Shown here: piece by piece, positions 858-47,361 of the stretch
How positions within the stretch are numbered: position 1 is the first letter of the stretch
Layout of the letters: every line of letters begins with the position of its first letter
DNA from: Verrucomicrobiota bacterium
GTDB taxonomy: Bacteria; Verrucomicrobiota; Verrucomicrobiia; Limisphaerales; JADLHS01
Direction of reading: 5' to 3'
Length of the DNA stretch: 64,000 bases
Assembly: GCA_013140495.1 (NCBI GenBank)
Contig: JABFSR010000080.1
Span: 1,055 to 65,054 of the forward strand
Notes under the pieces: model-generated
Databases searched by the model: none
Seen by the model: only the letters and a program-made list of their open reading frames with translations
Told to the model about the DNA's origin: nothing
Translations under genes and position numbers: made by a program

Positions 858-1272
858 CCCTGCCGAAACTGAGTTGCTCGGCGAGCGTTGGGGACGCGAC
901 GCGACGCGCGGGCTTGTCATCGCATTGAGCGGCGATCTTGGCGCGGGCAAGACGCAACTCGTCAAAGGCGTTGCGCGCGGTCTTGGCGTGACGGTGCGCG
1001 TTCATTCGCCCACGTTCACGCTCGTCAATGAATATGGCGGCGGAAGGCTCAAGCTGTTCCACCTCGACCTCTACCGGCTCGAAACTGCGGCACAAATTCA
1101 TAGCGCTGGCATTGAGGAATTTCTCCAGCCGGACGGAGTGGCGGTGATTGAATGGGCCGAGCGGCTCGAAGATGGAGGATGGAAGATGGAAGATGGCAAA
1201 GTCAGAAAAGTGAGAATCAACATCATCAGCGAAACAGAGCGGCGGATAGATTATGAAGATTTTGGCGTTTGA
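835..1272 (+). CDS. tsaE: tRNA threonylcarbamoyladenosine biosynthesis ATPase TsaE
   Basis: GDLGAGKT Walker A, SPTFTLV, HLDLYRL, IEWAE; ATG at 835 overlaps the end of thiL. Confidence 0.93.
   Translation: MATFISHSPAETELLGERWGRDATRGLVIALSGDLGAGKTQLVKGVARGLGVTVRVHSPTFTLVNEYGGGRLKLFHLDLYRLETAAQIHSAGIEEFLQPDGVAVIEWAERLEDGGWKMEDGKVRKVRINIISETERRIDYEDFGV
1171..1198 (+). repeat. heptamer tandem repeat inside tsaE
   Basis: GATGGAG GATGGAA GATGGAA GATGGCA. Confidence 0.75.
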
Positions 1273-26578: not shown

Positions 26579-28753
26579 ATGATTTCAATCGTTGAACATC
26601 AACCCGCCGGTGCCGACCTGGTGGCGCAGGTGGAGAACATTTTTTCCCCGTCGGGGATTCTTTCCAAGGCGAGCAACTTCGAGTTTCGTCCGCAGCAGCA
26701 GGAAATGGCCATGGCGGTGGCGCAGGCGTTGCAGAGCCGCGGCCATCTCGCAGTGGAGGCAGGTACGGGTGTCGGCAAATCGCTCGCGTATCTCATTCCG
26801 GCAATACTGTTTGCGGTTTCGCAAAGAAAAAAAGCTGTTGTCTCGACGCACACAATCAACTTGCAGGAGCAACTGACGGAAAAAGACCTGCCGTTGCTCG
26901 CGGGGGTGCTTGGTTCACTGCCCGAGCCGGTGAAGTTCGCTTTCACGATGCTCAAGGGCCGCGCGAATTATCTCTGCACGCGCCGGCTGCAAAAGGCAAT
27001 GCAGCAAAGCGGCAATCTGTTCACGTCGTCCGAGGCTGAGGAATTACAGCGCATCTACGAGTGGTCCAAGGAAACCAAGGACGGCAGCCTTTCGGACTTT
27101 GAGATCGAACCTGATCAGAAGGTTTGGGGACAGGTCTGTTCGGAACGAGGACTATGCTCGCCGAAAGTGTGCGGTTACCAGTCTGACTTCAGCAAAGACC
27201 ACGGCATCTGTTTTTTTCAGCGCGCACGCAATCGCATACTGTCATCAGACGTGCTGGTGTTGAACCACACGCTGTTCTTCACGTTGCTCGGCGGCGTGGA
27301 CGAAGATCAGGAGGGCGGCATCCTGTTCAAGAACGACTTCGTGATCTTCGACGAGGCGCACACGATGGAAAGCGTGGCGTCGAGGCACATCGGCTTGAGC
27401 GTGTCGAGCGGTCAGGTGCGTTATGCACTGAACCGCCTGTGGAATCCGCGCACGGAAAAGGGCCTGCTCGCCATCTTGCGCAGCGGAAACTCCGTGAAGC
27501 TGGTGGCGGACATCTTGAGTGAGTCGGACAAGTTTTTTGAGAGCGTTGAGGCCGCGTGTGAGGAAATGAACCAGCAGCATAGCGGGTCCGAAAACTACGG
27601 TGCTCGAGGTCGCACTGCTTCGCAAAAGAGGCGCGAGTGGAAGGAACTGCGCATTCGTCGCGCGGAACTCGTCAAGGACAACGTTACCCTGCCGATCCAG
27701 CGGTTGCGCGAAGCCGTAAGTGAGCTGGTCAAATTGAGCGACGACAAAGACATCGGGCAGGAGCTGGTGGAATGCAATCGGAGACTGGGTGAACTTAAAA
27801 CCGAGGTCGCGGAATTTCTGAGTCAGAGCGTACCTGAGCATGTCTATTGGGTGGAGCGCACGGGAAAAACCCAGCGTAACCTTTCGCTGAACGCCGCGCC
27901 TGTGGATGTGGCGGATTATCTTCGACGGCGGTTGTTCGAGAGCGATACGAGTATCGTGATGACGAGTGCGACGCTTTCGGTATCGGTGCCGGGTGGGAAG
28001 GCCAAGATTCAAAGTTCAGCCGAGAACGAGGAGGTTGCCAAACGCACAACGCGCAAGCCTCGAAAACCGAACGACCAGTCTGGCCTGAACTACTTCACCC
28101 GACGCGTTGGTGCTGAATCAGCCACGATGTTGCAGGTCGGCACACCGTTCGATTACGAGAAGCAGATGAAACTGTTCACGGTGAAGAAGATGCCGGACCC
28201 GCGTGATGCCGGTTACGCCGACGCTTTGGAAAAGTGGATCGAGCATTTTATCCGGCAAACTCACGGCAAGGCTTTCGTCCTCTTTACCAGCTACAAGCTC
28301 ATGCAGGAACTGGCTGGAAGAATGCAACGTTTCTTTGACGATCTCGGCCTCGCACTTTTCGTGCAAGGCACAGGCACGCCGCGTTCAACCATGCTGGAAA
28401 AGTTCAAGGACGACGTGGACTCGGTGCTCTTTGGCACGGACAGTTTCTGGCAGGGCGTGGATGTACCTGGCGAGGCTTTGAGCAACGTCATCATCACCAG
28501 GCTTCCGTTCGCCGTGCCTGACCATCCGCTTATTGAAGCGCGCATCGAGGCGATTGAAGCGCGTGGAGGAAATTCCTTCGGAGAATTCTCGTTGCCCGAG
28601 GCGATCTTGAAATTTCGCCAGGGTGTGGGGCGGTTGATTCGGACGAAGACGGATTCGGGCATAGTTGTAATCTTGGACAACCGCGTACTTGCTAAACAAT
28701 ACGGACAGGCATTCCTGGACGCTTTGCCAAAATGTCCTGTTGAAGTGTTATGA
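26579..28753 (+). CDS. DinG/YoaA family Fe-S DNA helicase
   Basis: EAGTGVGKS, Fe-S cysteines, DEAH, FWQGVD, QGVGRLIR. Confidence 0.92.
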   Translation: MISIVEHQPAGADLVAQVENIFSPSGILSKASNFEFRPQQQEMAMAVAQALQSRGHLAVEAGTGVGKSLAYLIPAILFAVSQRKKAVVSTHTINLQEQLTEKDLPLLAGVLGSLPEPVKFAFTMLKGRANYLCTRRLQKAMQQSGNLFTSSEAEELQRIYEWSKETKDGSLSDFEIEPDQKVWGQVCSERGLCSPKVCGYQSDFSKDHGICFFQRARNRILSSDVLVLNHTLFFTLLGGVDEDQEGGILFKNDFVIFDEAHTMESVASRHIGLSVSSGQVRYALNRLWNPRTEKGLLAILRSGNSVKLVADILSESDKFFESVEAACEEMNQQHSGSENYGARGRTASQKRREWKELRIRRAELVKDNVTLPIQRLREAVSELVKLSDDKDIGQELVECNRRLGELKTEVAEFLSQSVPEHVYWVERTGKTQRNLSLNAAPVDVADYLRRRLFESDTSIVMTSATLSVSVPGGKAKIQSSAENEEVAKRTTRKPRKPNDQSGLNYFTRRVGAESATMLQVGTPFDYEKQMKLFTVKKMPDPRDAGYADALEKWIEHFIRQTHGKAFVLFTSYKLMQELAGRMQRFFDDLGLALFVQGTGTPRSTMLEKFKDDVDSVLFGTDSFWQGVDVPGEALSNVIITRLPFAVPDHPLIEARIEAIEARGGNSFGEFSLPEAILKFRQGVGRLIRTKTDSGIVVILDNRVLAKQYGQAFLDALPKCPVEVL

Positions 28754-32279: not shown

Positions 32280-32311
32280 AAGTCGTAAATCGTAAATCCG
32301 AAATCGCAAAT
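32280..32311 (+). repeat. heptamer tandem repeat
   Basis: AAGTCGT AAATCGT AAATCCG AAATCGC AAAT. Confidence 0.7.
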
Positions 32312-37283: not shown

Positions 37284-37411
37284 AAGCTCCAAGCACCAAC
37301 ATCCAACATCCAGAGAAGCACTAAACCTCAAGCTCCAATCGGAGTTCGCGGCGGCTTTGATGTTTGGTCATTGGATGTTCTCTGGAGCTTGGAGCTTGGA
37401 GCTTGGAATTT
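37284..37411. repeat. gene-less palindrome of heptamer units
   Basis: Left arm AAGCTCC AAGCACC AACATCC AACATCC AGAGAA...; right arm ...TTCTCT GGAGCTT GGAGCTT GGAGCTT GGAATTT. Confidence 0.85.
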
Positions 37412-37417
37412 TTAGAG

Positions 37418-37924
37418 ATGGCAACCGATATTCTATTTTACGTCTTGGCGGCGCTGACGCTGATCTTCGGCGCGCTCGTCGTCGCGAATCCTTTCAGCCG
37501 TAACCCGGTCACGAGCGCGATGTTCCTCGTGCTGACAATCATCTCGATGGCGGGGTTGTTTGTGTTGCTGCATGCGTTCTTCCTCGCGGCGGTGCAGGTG
37601 CTGGTTTACGCGGGCGCGGTCATGGTGCTGTTTTTATTCGTCATCATGCTGCTCGACTTGAAGGAAGAAGAACGGCGCAAGATCAAGCTGATGGGGTTGG
37701 TGGCGGGTTTGATTTCCGTCGGCGCAATCGTCGCCATCTTCGTCCGCTCGCTACTGGCGACAAATCCCGGCAAAGACTTGGCTGAGCCCAAAGCCGTCGG
37801 CGACACCGCCACGCTCGGCAAGATGCTCTTCACGAATTACCTGTTGCCGTTTGAAATCGTTTCCATCCTGCTCCTCGTGGCGATGGTGGGAGTGATTTTA
37901 TTGAGCAAGAAAGACCTGAAGTAG
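37418..37924 (+). CDS. nuoJ: NADH-quinone oxidoreductase subunit J
   Basis: QVLVYAGAVMVLFLFVIMLL, PFEIVS. Confidence 0.95.
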   Translation: MATDILFYVLAALTLIFGALVVANPFSRNPVTSAMFLVLTIISMAGLFVLLHAFFLAAVQVLVYAGAVMVLFLFVIMLLDLKEEERRKIKLMGLVAGLISVGAIVAIFVRSLLATNPGKDLAEPKAVGDTATLGKMLFTNYLLPFEIVSILLLVAMVGVILLSKKDLK

Positions 37925-38427
37925 CCGCAAAAGAACGCAAAGAACACATAGAAAGGAGAATCAAAAATGCAAACCAAGACCATCAACGACTTGTGCGACA
38001 TCGTAAGGCAGACGGCTTATGACATTCACGTTTATCACGCGAATGGACACTTGGAGAAAGTCTATGAGAATGCCTTGGCGAATCGGCTTCGAAAAGCTGG
38101 ATTCGACGTGAAGCAACAGCATCCACTCAAGGTGCAAGACGAAGATGGAACGATCATTGGCGAATACTTCGCTGATCTGTTGATTGATGGTCGCCTTATT
38201 GTTGAGTTGAAAGCCGCCAAGTCAGTCGCCGATGAACACGTCGCGCAAACGCTCGGCTATTTGAAAGCGTCTCGGATTGAGCACGGCTTGCTCATCAATT
38301 TCGGCTCGTATCGGTTTGAGATTCGCAAGTTTGTATTGAGCCAAGGCAAGGCGAGTGAGGAAGGATTGGGCCGTTTGGCTTGCCTCATGCCTTTTCTCTT
38401 TGCGATCTATGCGTTCTTTCGCGGCTA
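37922..38427. mobile_element. putative element: GxxExxY gene between inverted repeats of 9-bp units
   Basis: 37922-37948 matches the reverse complement of 38401-38427 at 23 of 27 positions. Confidence 0.65.
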
Positions 38428-38428
38428 A
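37967..38428 (+). CDS. GxxExxY protein (PD-(D/E)XK nuclease fold)
   Basis: GHLEKVY, ADLLID...VELKA, LLINFG; SD AAAGGAG. Confidence 0.9.
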   Translation: MQTKTINDLCDIVRQTAYDIHVYHANGHLEKVYENALANRLRKAGFDVKQQHPLKVQDEDGTIIGEYFADLLIDGRLIVELKAAKSVADEHVAQTLGYLKASRIEHGLLINFGSYRFEIRKFVLSQGKASEEGLGRLACLMPFLFAIYAFFRG

Positions 38429-38743: not shown

Positions 38744-40609
<1,866 letters not shown>

Positions 40610-40620
40610 CATGAGAATTC

Positions 40621-41260
40621 AACGCAAAGGCGCAAAGACGCAAAGACGCAAAGAGGGAAGGATTTTCCTTCCCGTTGCGTGTTGGCGTGTTGGCGTGCTG
40701 GCGTTTAAGAAAGGTGGTCTGGCATGACCGAAAACGAGATTGCCAAGATTATCGTGGACGCCGCGATTGAAGTGCATCGCGAACTCGGTGGGCCGGGCTT
40801 GCTTGAGGATGTTTATGAAGAAGCCTTGGCGGAAGAATTGCGACTACGCGGCTTGAAAGTGGAGCGCCAGCTTCCAGTGCGGATTACCTATAAAGGTCGC
40901 GTGTTGAGCAAACCACTCCGTCTGGACATGAAGGTCGAGGGCTTGGTCTTGGTGGACAACAAAGCTGTGACCGAGTGGAATCCGATTTTTGAGGCACAGA
41001 TGCAAACTTACTTGCGTCTCACCGGTCTCAAGTTGGGTTTGGTAATCAATTTCGGCGAAAGACTCGTGAAGCACGGGATTCATCGGGTAGTGAATGGTCT
41101 GCCGGAAGACTTGGATTTTAAGCCGCAGCCGAAGCGCAAAGACAAGACGGACAACAATTGAAATTCGTGGCAATGAATAAACGCAATGACACAAAGGCGC
41201 AAAGAGGCGGAGAAAGGAAATGTTTTCCTTTGCGTCTTTGCGTCTTTGCGCCTTTGCGTT
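40621..41260. mobile_element. putative element: GxxExxY gene between two hairpins of 8-bp units, with a perfect 33-bp terminal inverted repeat
   Basis: 40621-40653 AACGCAAAGGCGCAAAGACGCAAAGACGCAAAG is the exact reverse complement of 41228-41260. Confidence 0.7.
40724..41161 (+). CDS. GxxExxY protein (PD-(D/E)XK nuclease fold)
   Basis: GPGLLEDVY, RLDMKV...VDNKA, GLVINFG. Confidence 0.9.
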   Translation: MTENEIAKIIVDAAIEVHRELGGPGLLEDVYEEALAEELRLRGLKVERQLPVRITYKGRVLSKPLRLDMKVEGLVLVDNKAVTEWNPIFEAQMQTYLRLTGLKLGLVINFGERLVKHGIHRVVNGLPEDLDFKPQPKRKDKTDNN

Positions 41261-41267
41261 AAAAAAG

Positions 41268-42815
41268 ATGACGACCCTGACCTACATTTTCCTGTTGCCA
41301 TTGCTCGCCGCAATCGCGCTGGCGTTTGTGCCGCGTAACTTTGCCGTCATCATGCGCGCCGTGGCGGTGGGCGTGACTTTCGTCACCATGCTGCTCGGCA
41401 TCCTGATGTTCTGGCAGTTCAACGGCGCAACGGCCGACGCTAATGGCTACAAGTTCGTCAGCACAATTCCGTGGCTGGGCGCGGAATCGCTCGGCATCGC
41501 CTGCAAGTTCGGCGTGGATGGCCTGAACGTCGGGCTGGTCTTGATGGGCGCAATTGTCGCGTTTGCGGCGGCGTGCTGCTCGTTCGAGATCAAGACGCGC
41601 GAGAAGGAGTTTTATATCCTGCTGCTCGTAATGACCGGCGGTATTCTCGGCGCGTTCATGTCCACGGACCTGTTCTTCTTCTACTTCTTCCATGAACTCG
41701 CGCTCGTACCGACGTTCATCATGATCGGCGTGTGGGGTCGCGGCGAGCGGAAGAACTTTGCGACGTTCCAGATCACGATCTACCTGAGCATCGGCGCATT
41801 GCTGGCGCTCATCGGCCTCATCGCGCTTTATCTGCAACTGCCCACCGATGTCCGCACGTTCGACATCCCAACGCTGACGAAGTATTTCGCCGAACACACG
41901 ATGGCCGCGAGCGCGCAGAACTTCATCTTCCCGCTGCTGCTGTTCGGATTCGGAATTCTCGTGTCGCTCTGGCCGTTCCATTCGTGGGCGGCATTGGGCT
42001 ACGGTTCTGCGCCGAGCGCGACGGCGATGTTGCACGCGGGCGTGCTGAAGAAGTTCGGGCTTTACGGTCTGATCCGCGTGGCGCTGCCGTTCATGCCGCA
42101 GGCGGCGCAAAGTTGGATGCAAATCCTCGCGTGGCTCTGCCTCGGCAACGTGCTTTACGTCGGCTGGGTGGCAATGCGGCAGAAGAATCTCAATCTGCTC
42201 ATCGGCAACTCCAGCGTGGCGCACATGGGCATGATCTTCCTTGGCATCGCGAGCTTGAACCTCATCGGCGTGACCGGCGCGGTGGTCATCATGATCGCGC
42301 ACGGCTTCCTCGCGGCGCTGACGTTTGGCTTGAGCGGCTACATCTACAATCAGACCGGCACGCTGGAAATGAGCGAACTTGGCGGGCTTGCGAAGAAGCT
42401 GCGGTTCATCGGCGTGGCGTTCGTGATGGCCGCGATGGCGGGCTGCGGCCTGCCGGGCTTCCTGAATTTCGTCGGCGAGGTCACCGTGTTTTTTGGGGCG
42501 TGGCAAGTACCTGCTTTGCGTTTGGTGACGGTGCTGGCGGTCTGGGGGGCGTTGATCATCGGGGCGGTTTACATGCTGCGCGCAGTGCGGGCAGTGATGC
42601 ATGGGCCGGCGCAGGAGGATAAGACTTATGCGACGAATGTGACGGATGCGAATCTGTGGCGAAAGCTGCCTTACGCGATCTTGATCGCGAGCTTGCTGGT
42701 GTTTGGGTTTTTCCCGCGCTTCTTGACCGACAAGATCAAGCCGGTGACGGAACAGATTGTGAATATGGCGACGACCGGAGTTGCGAAAACCATCGTGGCG
42801 CAATCGAAGCCGTGA
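41268..42815 (+). CDS. nuoM: NADH-quinone oxidoreductase subunit M
   Basis: FHELALVP, PFHSW, LKKFGLYG, SSVAHMG, GLPG. Confidence 0.95.
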   Translation: MTTLTYIFLLPLLAAIALAFVPRNFAVIMRAVAVGVTFVTMLLGILMFWQFNGATADANGYKFVSTIPWLGAESLGIACKFGVDGLNVGLVLMGAIVAFAAACCSFEIKTREKEFYILLLVMTGGILGAFMSTDLFFFYFFHELALVPTFIMIGVWGRGERKNFATFQITIYLSIGALLALIGLIALYLQLPTDVRTFDIPTLTKYFAEHTMAASAQNFIFPLLLFGFGILVSLWPFHSWAALGYGSAPSATAMLHAGVLKKFGLYGLIRVALPFMPQAAQSWMQILAWLCLGNVLYVGWVAMRQKNLNLLIGNSSVAHMGMIFLGIASLNLIGVTGAVVIMIAHGFLAALTFGLSGYIYNQTGTLEMSELGGLAKKLRFIGVAFVMAAMAGCGLPGFLNFVGEVTVFFGAWQVPALRLVTVLAVWGALIIGAVYMLRAVRAVMHGPAQEDKTYATNVTDANLWRKLPYAILIASLLVFGFFPRFLTDKIKPVTEQIVNMATTGVAKTIVAQSKP

Positions 42816-47319: not shown

Positions 47320-47361
47320 GAACACGGAACTTTGAACTCGGAACGCTGAACGCGGAACTGC
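47320..47361. repeat. heptamer tandem repeat GAACnnn x6
   Basis: GAACACG GAACTTT GAACTCG GAACGCT GAACGCG GAACTGC. Confidence 0.75.

What the first reader, a model, noticed from the sequence alone, without database searches (positions are those of the whole stretch)
40606..41272. Second GxxExxY cassette: twin 8-bp-unit hairpins with a perfect 33-bp outer inverted repeat (best candidate novel system)
Seen: each flank is a hairpin (40621-40706 capped by GGGAAGGA/TCCTTCCC; 41179-41260 capped by AAAGGAAA/TTTCCTTT). The inner arms are degenerate, while the outer arms match exactly across 640 bp. The protein is divergent from the first one (DNK instead of ELK) and has a different repeat period (8 vs 9), although both share a CGCAAAG core. 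Inference: each paralogue has a cognate repeat, as in REP-RAYT but with a PD-(D/E)XK enzyme. Alternative folds (two local hairpins versus one long stem looping out the gene) could allow excision, inversion or mRNA processing that spares nuoM expression.
Basis: partly seen in the sequence, partly recalled or inferred. Interest (0 to 1): 0.85.

Follow-up and report, generated by a model that had tools for sequence, protein, structure and literature searches.

The report
Nuclease gene cassette inside repeat hairpin
A small nuclease-like gene wedged between two respiratory-chain genes sits inside a long hairpin built from 8-base repeats; related genes in many bacterial phyla are framed by the same kind of repeat, which looks like an undescribed compact gene cassette that keeps or moves itself together with its repeats.

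Summary
A 145-aa GxxExxY / PF13366 PD-(D/E)XK protein (40724-41161) lies between nuoL and nuoM. It is framed by a 33/33 perfect inverted repeat of 8-nt CGCAAAG units, and each outer arm also has a degenerate inner partner.

It is not a one-off. Inverted repeats of tandem units frame 3 of 4 GxxExxY genes in this genome, 26 of 30 in relatives and 53 of 74 in other phyla. The same test scores 1 of 400 random intervals.

The repeat type follows the protein clade, not the host. The exact CGCA[AG]AG core lies on both sides in 20 of 76 clade-A loci, 0 of 26 clade-B loci and 0 of 28 four-helix-bundle loci.

The nuoL-nuoM site is empty, holds a solo hairpin of the same units, or holds other nuclease genes in relatives. 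The gene is as old as its flanks and under strong purifying selection.

Best reading: a REPIN-RAYT-like cassette with a different enzyme and an IVS-like stem. Four-helix-bundle genes share the architecture, so the nuclease need not be the mover. No activity has been tested.

The parts
38744..40609 (+). nuoL (621 aa), upstream host gene; its stop TGA is at 40607-40609
   Evidence: ORF list. Its C-terminal 149 aa served as the query that found the same junction in 30 of 40 relatives. The name nuoL is my reading of the protein; no family scan was run.
40618..40653 (+). Left outer arm: four 8-nt units (A/G)CGCAAAG. It pairs perfectly (33/33, 40621-40653) with the right outer arm.
   Evidence: pair I1; TRF period 8, 4.1 copies.
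40655..40673 (+). Cap of the left local hairpin (GGGAAGGA ttt TCCTTCCC)
   Evidence: 8-bp helix 40655-40662 / 40666-40673.
40674..40706 (+). Left inner arm: degenerate units GTTGGCGT. It pairs imperfectly with the left outer arm in a local hairpin.
   Evidence: family D2; period 8, 3.5 copies; z -5.2.
40724..41161 (+). GxxExxY / PDDEXK_3 gene, 145 aa. Motif G25-E28-Y31; predicted catalytic D68, D78, K80.
   Evidence: AlphaFold model has pLDDT 90. Weak fold matches to Cas4, splicing endonuclease and lambda exonuclease. pN/pS is 0.03-0.10.
41180..41215 (+). Right inner arm (degenerate CGCAAAG-type units)
   Evidence: pair I2: 36 nt, 78% complementary to 41225-41260; z -7.1.
41212..41227 (+). Cap of the right local hairpin (AAAGGAAA tgt TTTCCTTT region)
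41228..41263 (+). Right outer arm: four units CTTTGCG(T/C), the exact reverse complement of 40621-40653
41268..42815 (+). nuoM, downstream host gene; its start ATG lies 8 nt after the right arm
   Evidence: The translation MTTLTYIF... aligns from residue 1 with the nuoM start in relatives.
37922..38428 (+). Sister cassette between nuoJ and nuoK. Arm 37922-37952; GxxExxY ORF 37967-38428; arm 38397-38427 overlaps the 3' end of the ORF. It has a single inverted repeat with 9-nt units and no local hairpin.
   Evidence: 26/31 complementary, score 18.5; the left arm alone does not fold (z +1.1).

Best explanation
The region is a compact cassette made of a small PD-(D/E)XK-fold gene (GxxExxY family) set between inverted arms. 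The arms are short tandem arrays of a clade-specific 8-nt unit. Gene and arms are inherited, and over long times spread, as one unit. Arm pairs without a gene (solo hairpins) are its non-autonomous derivatives or remnants.

The logic is that of REPIN-RAYT systems: one conserved, selected gene framed by its own repeats, plus a dispersed population of those repeats. The enzyme fold is different and the arms are tandem-unit arrays.

Most likely mechanism, which is inferred:
- The protein, probably as a dimer, recognises the repeated units of its own arms when they are folded or single-stranded, and cuts or holds them. This maintains, copies or moves the arms and whatever lies in their loop.
- On the nuo transcript the arms form either two local hairpins or one long duplex with the gene looped out. 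That duplex is the kind of stem RNase III cuts in 23S rRNA intervening sequences. Cutting it would let a promoterless insert sit inside an essential operon.

Shown here: the anatomy, its recurrence, the link between clade and unit, the site polymorphism, the age and the selection.

Inferred: binding or cleavage of the repeats by the protein, any movement mechanism, and RNase III processing.
For: 1. Anatomy. There is a 33/33 perfect outer inverted repeat and two local hairpins with z -5.2 and -7.1.

2. Recurrence of the bracket (score >=14):
- 3 of 4 GxxExxY genes in this genome;
- 26 of 30 loci from relatives, the window's own included;
- 53 of 74 full-flank loci from more than 15 phylum labels;
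- 23 of 27 clade-B loci;
- controls: 1 of 400 random intervals and 2 of 379 long ORFs.

3. The unit follows the protein clade.
- The tree has two clades with 99% support. One has 33 A-type arms among 43 rows, the other 22 B-type arms among 27 rows.
- The a-priori core CGCA[AG]AG lies at least twice on each side in 20 of 76 clade-A loci. Ten of these carry non-Verrucomicrobiota labels (Chloroflexota 3; Chlamydiota, Cyanobacteriota, Desulfobacterota, Betaproteobacteria and Bacteroidota 1 each; unlabelled 2).
- It does so in 0 of 26 clade-B loci and 0 of 28 four-helix-bundle loci. The backwards control scores 1 of 76.
- Within this one genome, different paralogues carry different units.

4. The arms are constrained. 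The left outer arms of G000, G007 and G013 differ at 4-5 of 33 positions (counted by eye). Synonymous sites of the gene differ at 53-55%.

5. The gene is functional. pN/pS is 0.03-0.10, against 0.16-0.40 for the adjoining nuoL and nuoM segments.

6. The site is polymorphic.
- Empty (7-8 nt between the genes) in four same-genus genomes (G014, G012, G005, G017); several more distant relatives also have only short gaps.
- A solo hairpin of the same units and the same outer flanks in G035 and G027, and of CGCAGAG units in G020.
- The cassette in G000, G007 and G013.
- An 82%-identical gene with twin CGCAGAG hairpins sits in another neighbourhood in G039.

7. Solo CGCA[AG]AG hairpins lie at 16 other places in this genome.

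8. Fused two-domain family members of 250-295 aa hint at a dimer.

9. Orientation. Where both neighbours lie on one strand, the gene is co-oriented in 35 of 43 loci, judged by crude ORF calls. No sigma-70-like promoter or T-tract terminator lies in 40606-41272.
Against: - Non-nuclease four-helix-bundle genes have the same architecture (8 of 10 here, 21 of 29 in relatives). The framed gene therefore need not be the enzyme that makes or moves the arms.
- CGCA[AG]AG arrays are plentiful in genomes where no clade-A-like gene was found: G006 23, G009 15, G012 16, G015 36, G024 15, G035 22. Enrichment over the backwards control is seen in 15 of 19 genomes with such a gene and in about 11 of 22 without. 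These genomes are incomplete MAGs, and the E-value cut-off was chosen after the fact.
- No target-site duplication or fixed target sequence was seen at 46 element ends.
- The cassette is not a recent arrival. Its pS (0.53-0.55) is as high as that of nuoL and nuoM (0.42-0.51), so no movement is caught in the act among the three orthologues.
- The exact core is found on both sides in only 10 of 58 non-Verrucomicrobiota loci; elsewhere the unit has drifted (CACGGAG, CACAAAG, CGCGAAG).
- The A/B arm classes were defined after seeing the data, and that tree is the quick version.
- The fold search gives only weak matches (best E 1.2e-3, TM 0.43-0.51), and no solved relative was found by sequence.
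Confidence: 0.5

Rival explanations
1. RNA-level insulator with a passenger gene. The arms are selected only as transcript structures: RNase III sites, 3'-end protectors or translational couplers. These let any small foreign gene sit inside an operon. The GxxExxY protein would have an unrelated cellular role, for example defence or repair, and would not touch its arms.
For: - The long-range stem dominates the predicted fold in three orthologues.
- The same architecture holds unrelated four-helix-bundle genes. That family includes the ORF of 23S rRNA intervening sequences, whose stem RNase III cuts (PMC4990558; abstract and passages read).
- The gene tends to be co-oriented with its neighbours, 35 against 8.
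- No own promoter was seen.
Against: A pure structural role does not explain why the unit sequence, and not just the pairing, is kept with the protein clade across phyla (20 of 76 against 0 of 26 and 0 of 28). It also does not explain why paralogues in one cell use different units, or why gene-less hairpins of the same units are dispersed in the genome.
Confidence: 0.2
2. Self-regulating or addictive module without mobility. The protein binds its own flanking repeats, as DNA operator arrays or as RNA. It thereby controls its own synthesis, or acts as a toxin held in check by repeat RNA, in the manner of type III toxin-antitoxin pairs.
For: - The units are clade-specific.
- The arms abut the start and stop codons in the minimal 424-480-bp forms.
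- Many A-type units contain AAGG, GAGG or GGAG, which resemble Shine-Dalgarno sequences. The 3' arm is their complement (read by eye).
- The gene is under strong purifying selection and is old.
Against: The units are 8-10 nt, not the roughly 36-nt structured repeats of ToxI-type antitoxins (recalled). The repeats lie on both sides in inverted order. Solo hairpins without a gene are common. B-type units are not Shine-Dalgarno-like.
Confidence: 0.15
3. The arms are mobilised or generated in trans by something else: a Y1/RAYT transposase, a recombinase, or plain homologous recombination between dispersed hairpins. Small genes are merely trapped between two copies.
For: - Six Y1_Tnp genes are in the genome.
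- The genome holds about 530 mini-arrays in 141 unit families, many paired as hairpins.
- The twin hairpins are direct repeats of each other, so recombination between them could delete the gene and leave a solo hairpin. Solo hairpins do occur at the same site.
- Arrays occur without a gene.
Against: The Y1_Tnp genes are framed by their own, different palindromes (GAATCCCAACGGGATTC type), not by tandem-unit arms. No integron integrase scored over the cut-off. Random trapping would not tie the unit family to the protein clade. It also would not give 53 of 74 framed loci across phyla.
Confidence: 0.1

Closest known systems
REP/REPIN-RAYT systems (repetitive extragenic palindromes with their Y1 transposase)
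   Same: A single conserved gene is framed by inverted copies of its own repeat. Gene-less hairpin copies are dispersed in the genome. Repeat families are specific to gene clades. The gene is old, apparently vertically inherited at this site and under purifying selection. The properties of REPIN-RAYT are recalled, plus the search listing of PMC3116915.
   Different: The enzyme is a 125-145-aa PD-(D/E)XK-fold protein, not an HUH/Y1 transposase. The genome's own Y1_Tnp genes carry other palindromes. The arms are tandem arrays of 8-10-nt units rather than one short palindrome with a conserved head. The gene often sits inside operons.
23S rRNA intervening sequences (IVS) that carry an ORF (S23p / four-helix-bundle protein)
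   Same: A small ORF lies in the loop of a stem made by terminal inverted repeats. In Coxiella the stem is 28 bp and RNase III cuts it in the middle. The element has a sporadic distribution and was long suspected of being mobile (PMC4990558). Four-helix-bundle genes in this genome have the same tandem-unit brackets.
   Different: This cassette lies in an mRNA operon, not in 23S rRNA. None of about 170 fetched loci has 23S rRNA beside it. The ORF family is different. The arms are made of tandem units. Processing has not been tested.
Intergenic short tandem heptamer repeats (cyanobacterial STRR; TAACTGA repeats of Beggiatoaceae, Cyanobacteria and Bacteroidetes)
   Same: Arrays of 2-6 copies of a 7-nt unit lie in intergenic DNA, often just before start codons, and are shared between distant phyla (PMC4679880, passages read). 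This genome has about 530 such arrays of period 7-10.
   Different: In the passages I read, those reports describe direct repeats. They mention neither paired inverted arrays that frame a specific small gene nor a link between gene clade and unit.
MITEs and their parent insertion sequences
   Same: Terminal inverted repeats; gene-less short derivatives; presence/absence polymorphism at a site.
   Different: No target-site duplication was seen and there is no known transposase family. The full element is only 424-750 bp.

Membership tests
GxxExxY protein (TIGR04256) / PDDEXK_3 (PF13366) | Profile score over the curated cut-off | tested here: met
   128.3 bits against a cut-off of 35; 122.5 bits against a cut-off of 22.
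GxxExxY protein (TIGR04256) / PDDEXK_3 (PF13366) | GxxExxY motif and PD-(D/E)XK acidic/lysine residues | tested here: met
   G25, E28 and Y31 are present. D68 is invariant and K80 at least 90% conserved in 55 sequences. The middle residue is D78 here and E in most others.
GxxExxY protein (TIGR04256) / PDDEXK_3 (PF13366) | Restriction-endonuclease-like fold | tested here: inconclusive
   The model is confident (pLDDT 90) with element order alpha-alpha-beta-beta-beta-alpha-beta. Foldseek gives only weak matches to Cas4 SSO0001, splicing endonuclease and lambda exonuclease (best E 1.2e-3, TM 0.43-0.51).
REPIN-RAYT system | Gene framed by inverted copies of its repeat, with dispersed gene-less copies | tested here: met
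REPIN-RAYT system | The enzyme is a Y1 (HUH) transposase, PF01797 | tested here: not met
   The ORF matches only PF13366. The genome's six PF01797 genes have other palindromes beside them.
REPIN-RAYT system | Repeat family specific to the enzyme clade | tested here: met
   with the caveats on post-hoc classes and shared ancestry.
REPIN-RAYT system | The enzyme acts on the repeats | not testable with these tools
   No biochemical or protein-DNA modelling tool was on hand.
23S rRNA intervening sequence | ORF in the loop of a stem formed by terminal inverted repeats | tested here: met
   33-bp perfect stem; the MFE of the whole cassette uses it.
23S rRNA intervening sequence | Inserted in a 23S rRNA helix | tested here: not met
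   The cassette lies between nuoL and nuoM. blastn of the genome's own 23S rRNA against all loci fetched by then gave no hit.
23S rRNA intervening sequence | Excised by RNase III | not testable with these tools
   Only contigs of public runs were available, and these cannot show RNA ends.
Insertion sequence / MITE | Target-site duplication and a transposase of a known family | tested here: not met
   No duplication was seen at 46 pairs of ends. The only ORF is PF13366.
Integron gene cassette (attC) | Integron integrase in the genome; cassette arrays | tested here: not met
   TIGR02249 best match is 83 bits against a cut-off of 265. The cassettes are single and lie inside operons.
Type III toxin-antitoxin (ToxIN-like) | Tandem ~36-nt structured RNA repeats upstream of the nuclease gene, separated from it by a terminator | tested here: not met
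   Units are 8 nt, lie on both sides in inverted order, and no terminator-like site is present. The defining features are recalled.

The most novel reading that the evidence does not exclude
GxxExxY cassettes, and in parallel the four-helix-bundle ('IVS protein') cassettes, are a widespread and so far undescribed class of ultra-compact self-propagating elements of about 450 bp. In each, a protein of about 125 aa recognises clade-specific tandem 7-10-nt units that form its own terminal inverted repeats.

On this reading, the short tandem intergenic repeats known from cyanobacteria, Bacteroidota, Verrucomicrobiota and others are their gene-less progeny. The long stem doubles as an RNase III site, which makes insertion inside essential operons and rRNA harmless.
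Probability: 0.3. Interest if true: 0.9.

Novelty: new variant of a known kind. Interest (0 to 1): 0.78.

Why it matters
The GxxExxY / PF13366 family is large: 15,043 clusters at 50% identity match at E <= 0.001. Neither name search found a paper that reports a function: 'GxxExxY' is held by 3 papers (2 listed) and 'PDDEXK_3' by 1.

Three points give the family a testable function:
- these genes come as a unit with clade-specific tandem-unit inverted repeats;
- a second unrelated small-protein family uses the same frame;
- gene-less hairpins of the same units litter the genomes.

The work also offers an origin for the puzzling short tandem intergenic repeats of several phyla. It links 23S rRNA intervening sequences to a broader class of cassettes that live in operons. 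If the protein proves to read 8-nt units arranged in tandem, it would also be a very small sequence-specific nucleic-acid recognition module.

Tried and rejected
- **Recent horizontal transfer of the cassette into nuoL-nuoM.** I first inferred this from 92% protein identity against 76% for the NuoL C-terminus in G013. I rejected it because synonymous divergence of the gene (pS 0.53-0.55) is as high as in the flanks. The high protein identity reflects purifying selection.
- **The cassette as a 23S rRNA IVS.** No 23S rRNA lies next to any fetched locus.
- **Integron cassette.** No integron integrase.
- **Arms as RAYT-type REPs.** The Y1_Tnp genes have other palindromes.
- **Arms as intrinsic terminators, or a cassette-borne sigma-70 promoter.** Neither was found in 40606-41272. 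The scan is a simple consensus and may not suit this phylum.
- **Solved relatives by sequence.** None at E <= 1.
- **The search for related loci with the 15-sequence alignment A1.** It failed for lack of a conserved stretch. A narrower alignment, A2, worked.
- **Public runs.** Only contigs were available, so there is no information on RNA ends or expression.
  - Depth peaks on the arms: X20 gives 624 and 428, against 0-84 in the neighbouring bins.
  - Many joints skip about 575 nt. Most of those in table 5c carry 12-40 other letters between the arms (one other joint there, 41097->41244, has 11). They show that arm pairs with other loops and flanks are common in those metagenomes.
  - They may come from other organisms, since likeness was set at 85 and most sides are under 35.
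  - One X20 contig joins 40610 to 41302 with 37 other letters. It looks like an empty nuoL-nuoM junction of a relative (side 29), which is weak evidence.
  - Parts without cover are not interpreted.
- **Gene presence against array count in 41 relatives.** The association is weak: 15 of 19 against about 11 of 22.
- **The careful tree** did not finish in 288 s, so the quick tree is reported.
- **Supplementary files** of the papers were not consulted. Those of PMC4679880 list repeat positions that might show paired inverted arrays.
Full report
**1. The observation**

The window is contig C39:1055-65054 of an unnamed 5.57-Mb draft genome, G000. Between the stop of nuoL (40607-40609) and the start of nuoM (41268) lie 658 bases. 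They hold one 145-aa ORF, 40724-41161.

The repeat finder gives arms 40618-40653 and 41228-41263: 36 nt, 97% complementary, 574 nt apart. The core 40621-40653 / 41228-41260 is 33/33 perfect. The arms are tandem 8-nt units (ACGCAAAG x4.1 and CTTTGCGT x4.0).

Each outer arm has a degenerate partner close by. The two local hairpins fold at -44.7 and -44.6 kcal/mol, with z -5.2 and -7.1. None of 200 shuffles folded as well. A bracket score of 33.5 compares with a maximum of 14.5 in 400 random intervals of the same genome.

**2. The gene**

The ORF is a GxxExxY protein (TIGR04256, 128 bits; PF13366 PDDEXK_3, 122 bits). In a 55-sequence alignment G25, D68 and N109 are invariant. G23, E28, Y31, Y56, K80, Q92, Y96, L97, G105 and F110 are at least 90% conserved. 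The middle acidic residue is D78 here (V-D-N-K) and E in most others.

The AlphaFold model is confident (pLDDT 90, pTM 0.82). It resembles solved structures only weakly: Cas4 SSO0001 (E 1.2e-3, TM 0.43-0.51), archaeal splicing endonuclease and lambda exonuclease. No solved structure matches by sequence.

The family is large, with 15,043 representative clusters at E <= 0.001. It includes 250-295-aa proteins with two matched stretches, which hints at a dimer.

**3. The site is polymorphic**

I fetched the nuoL-nuoM junction from 30 relatives.

- **Empty.** The gap between the genes is 7-8 nt in four same-genus genomes (G014, the closest by NuoL; G012; G005; G017). Several more distant relatives also have only short gaps.
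- **Solo hairpin.** G035 and G027, which belong to other families, hold a single hairpin of the same CGCAAAG units. In G035 the outer flanks match those of G000 (TGACATGAGAATTCAACGCAAAGG... and ...GCGCCTTTGCGTTAAAAGAAATG). G020 holds a solo hairpin of CGCAGAG units.
- **Cassette.** G000, G007 and G013 hold the GxxExxY cassette with twin hairpins.
- **Other cargo.** A YhcG/DUF1016 PD-(D/E)XK nuclease gene sits there in G009 (Pfam). G010 and G015 hold a visibly similar insert. G016 has a NYN-domain gene, G028 an unnamed pair of small ORFs, and others have other repeat elements.

So the outer arms of the window's cassette are the arms of a hairpin that exists on its own at this very site elsewhere. 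An 82%-identical gene with twin hairpins of CGCAGAG units sits in a different neighbourhood in G039.

**4. The genome is full of such arrays, and a second gene family uses them**

TRF finds 586 arrays of period 7-10 with at least 2.8 copies. That leaves 530 after filtering and merging, in 141 unit families. Many are paired as hairpins.

The genome has only four GxxExxY genes. Three are framed by inverted tandem-unit arms. The fourth, on C31, has a hairpin on its 3' side only.

CGCA[AG]AG double units lie at 16 other places without such a gene. Most are hairpins with loops from under 10 to about 220 nt, and some have other repeats nested in the loop.

8 of the 10 four-helix-bundle genes (TIGR02436, the family of the 23S rRNA IVS ORF) are framed in the same way. 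Their units are 7-nt in most cases (two have 8- and 11-nt units). Several of those unit families are among the most abundant arrays in the genome: TGGACTC 56, CAACCTG 20, AAACACC 19. In relatives, 21 of 29 full-flank four-helix-bundle loci are framed. Controls scored 1 of 400 random intervals and 2 of 379 long ORFs.

**5. Recurrence and specificity across genomes**

- Of 30 GxxExxY loci from 29 related genomes, 26 are framed.
- A scan of one genome per species returned 80 loci labelled as Verrucomicrobiota, Chloroflexota, Planctomycetota, Acidobacteriota, Chlamydiota, Desulfobacterota, Proteobacteria, Cyanobacteriota, Bacteroidota, archaea and others. Of the 74 with full flanks, 53 are framed.
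- Their arms are again 8-nt units of the type C[GA]C[ACG][AG]AG. The ends read TTAACGC... or CTCACGC..., and whole elements span 424-750 bp.
- Homologues of the paralogue on C278, 35-48% identical and spread across the phylum, are framed in 23 of 27 loci. Their units are different: 9-10 nt, of the type C[GA]CGAA[ATG]nn.

On a quick maximum-likelihood tree of 70 proteins the two groups are separated by 99% support. One clade has 33 A-type arms among 43 rows and the other 22 B-type among 27. The classes were defined after seeing the arms.

I therefore also tested a motif fixed in advance from the finding itself, CGCA[AG]AG at least twice upstream with its complement at least twice downstream:

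| Group | Loci with the motif |
|---|---|
| Verrucomicrobiota clade A | 10 of 18 |
| Other-phylum clade A | 10 of 58 (25 of 58 with at least one on each side) |
| Clade B | 0 of 26 |
| Four-helix-bundle | 0 of 28 |
| Backwards control | 1 of 76 |

Paralogues in one cell carry different units, while one clade carries the same unit in different phyla. That is what a cognate relation predicts.

**6. Age and selection**

Between G000, G007 and G013 the gene has pS 0.53-0.55 and pN/pS 0.03-0.10. The last 600 nt of nuoL has pS 0.44-0.51 and pN/pS 0.26-0.40. The first 900 nt of nuoM has pS 0.42-0.46 and pN/pS 0.16-0.18.

The cassette is therefore at least as old as the split of these genomes, and the protein is under strong purifying selection. 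This overturns my first idea of recent transfer. It also implies that the empty sites within the genus are losses, or that the region has been exchanged.

The outer arms differ at only 4-5 of 33 positions between the orthologues (counted by eye), far less than synonymous sites. Within G000 the two outer arms are still perfectly complementary. The arms are thus constrained and evolve in concert.

**7. Transcript context**

- No sigma-70-like promoter or T-tract terminator lies in the cassette (this is a simple consensus scan).
- Where both neighbours lie on one strand, the gene is co-oriented in 35 of 43 loci, judged by crude ORF calls.
- The predicted MFE of the whole cassette uses long-range pairing between the two flanks: 40, 89 and 63 pairs in G000, G007 and G013.
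- A perfect 33-bp duplex is the kind of substrate RNase III cuts in ORF-bearing 23S rRNA intervening sequences. In Coxiella that stem is 28 bp and is cut in the middle (PMC4990558; abstract and passages).
- Public runs gave only contigs, which cannot show RNA ends.

**8. Rivals tested**

- Y1/RAYT transposases are present (six), but they have their own different palindromes beside them.
- No integron integrase.
- No 23S rRNA beside any locus.
- No target-site duplication at 46 pairs of ends.
- CGCA[AG]AG arrays occur in genomes where no clade-A-like gene was found: G006 23, G009 15, G012 16, G015 36, G024 15, G035 22. Either the arrays outlive the gene, or they do not need it, or the gene was missed in incomplete MAGs.

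**9. Most likely working**

Shown:
- a conserved, selected small PD-(D/E)XK-fold gene inherited together with clade-specific tandem-unit inverted arms;
- gene-less arm pairs dispersed in genomes;
- a site that is empty, solo or filled in relatives.

Inferred:
- The protein, perhaps as a dimer, reads the repeated units of its own arms when these are folded or single-stranded. It cuts or holds them, and so maintains, copies or moves the arms and what lies in their loop.
- On RNA the stem is processed, so that the insert does not harm the operon.

The system works like REPIN-RAYT, and its stem looks like that of an IVS. It is a member of neither: the enzyme is not a Y1 transposase and the site is not 23S rRNA. 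Non-nuclease four-helix-bundle genes sit in the same frame, so the framed gene may be a beneficiary rather than the motor. I give the cognate-nuclease reading about 0.5.

**10. Literature**

- A full-text search for 'GxxExxY' found 3 papers (2 listed). I read the passage in one, an incidental mention; the other I saw only as a listing.
- 'PDDEXK_3' found 1 paper, whose table lists the function as unknown.
- Searches on STRR and heptamer repeats, on the IVS protein names and on small dispersed repeats found reports of tandem heptamer direct repeats shared between phyla (PMC4679880, passages read).
- None of the listings or passages I read describes inverted tandem-unit arms that frame GxxExxY or four-helix-bundle genes.
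- Subscription journals and supplementary files were not searched.

**11. Caveats**

- Most genomes are MAGs, and phylum labels are those of the records.
- Related genomes are not independent samples.
- The score threshold of 14 and the A/B arm classes were set after seeing the data.
- The tree is the quick version.
- ORF-based orientation calls are crude.
- The names nuoJ/K/L/M rest on my reading of the proteins.

Noticed in passing
window 37922-38428: The first GxxExxY cassette, between nuoJ and nuoK, has a single imperfect inverted repeat (26/31) of 9-nt units and no local hairpins. Its right arm overlaps the last codons of the ORF. On the tree this protein is a long branch in clade B.
   Followed up: partly
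G000 C207:3250-3781, C157:39755-40310, C148:41494-42084, C232:9735-10293, C240:45084-45664, C212:32638-33105, C107:39942-40452, C96:4543-4951; relatives L182-L211: Four-helix-bundle genes (TIGR02436, the family of the 23S rRNA IVS ORF and of DGR Avd) are framed by inverted tandem arrays, mostly of 7-nt units. This holds for 8 of 10 in this genome and 21 of 29 in relatives. Several of their unit families are among the most abundant arrays in the genome.
   Followed up: partly
L034, L035, L036, L039, L045 (nuoL-nuoM junction of G015, G009, G010, G028, G016): The same junction holds other small genes in relatives. One is a YhcG/DUF1016 PD-(D/E)XK nuclease, followed by a CGCAGAG array in G009 and G010. 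Another is a NYN-domain gene that comes with a duplicated copy of the first ~100 nt of nuoM. A third insert is two unnamed small ORFs. The site is a hot spot for nuclease-type inserts.
   Followed up: partly
whole genome G000: About 530 tandem mini-arrays of period 7-10 fall into 141 unit families. The largest are TGGACTC 56, CCACGCA 35, TGGAGCT 31 and CACGAAACA 20. For some large families (CCACGCA, TGGAGCT, CACGAAACA) none of the GxxExxY or four-helix-bundle genes checked in this genome carried those units.
   Followed up: partly
G000 C134:47660-47911 and C223:28826-29074: Two copies of a nested element: outer CGCAAAG arms enclose an inner hairpin of GACGCGAATT units, the two unit types of the genome's GxxExxY genes. 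There is no gene inside. The copy on C223 lies about 600 nt from a Y1_Tnp match (27966-28205).
   Followed up: no
G000 C250:3130-3300, C263:18890-19060, C170:11100-11275: A different long palindromic repeat (GACTGCGGCGGGAAGCGAAG...CCACCGCAGTCC type) sits in or beside the loops of CGCAAAG/CGCAGAG hairpins. This suggests that the loops collect other elements.
   Followed up: no
G000 C81:12147-13057, C31:3033-3714, C122:45590-46221: Y1_Tnp (RAYT/IS200-like) genes are framed by their own palindromes of the GAATCCCAACGGGATTC type. This is a classical REP-like system that coexists with the tandem-unit hairpins.
   Followed up: partly
proteins P0003, P0006, P0009, P0010, P0012 and others: Some family members are 250-295 aa with two matched GxxExxY stretches. 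As fused tandem domains they hint that the single-domain proteins act as dimers.
   Followed up: no
window 1168-1196, 32283-32311, 37383-37407, 47320-47359: The window holds further tandem 7-nt arrays (GAAGATG, TCGTAAA, TGGAGCT, GAACTCG, contig coordinates minus 1054). They were not examined.
   Followed up: no
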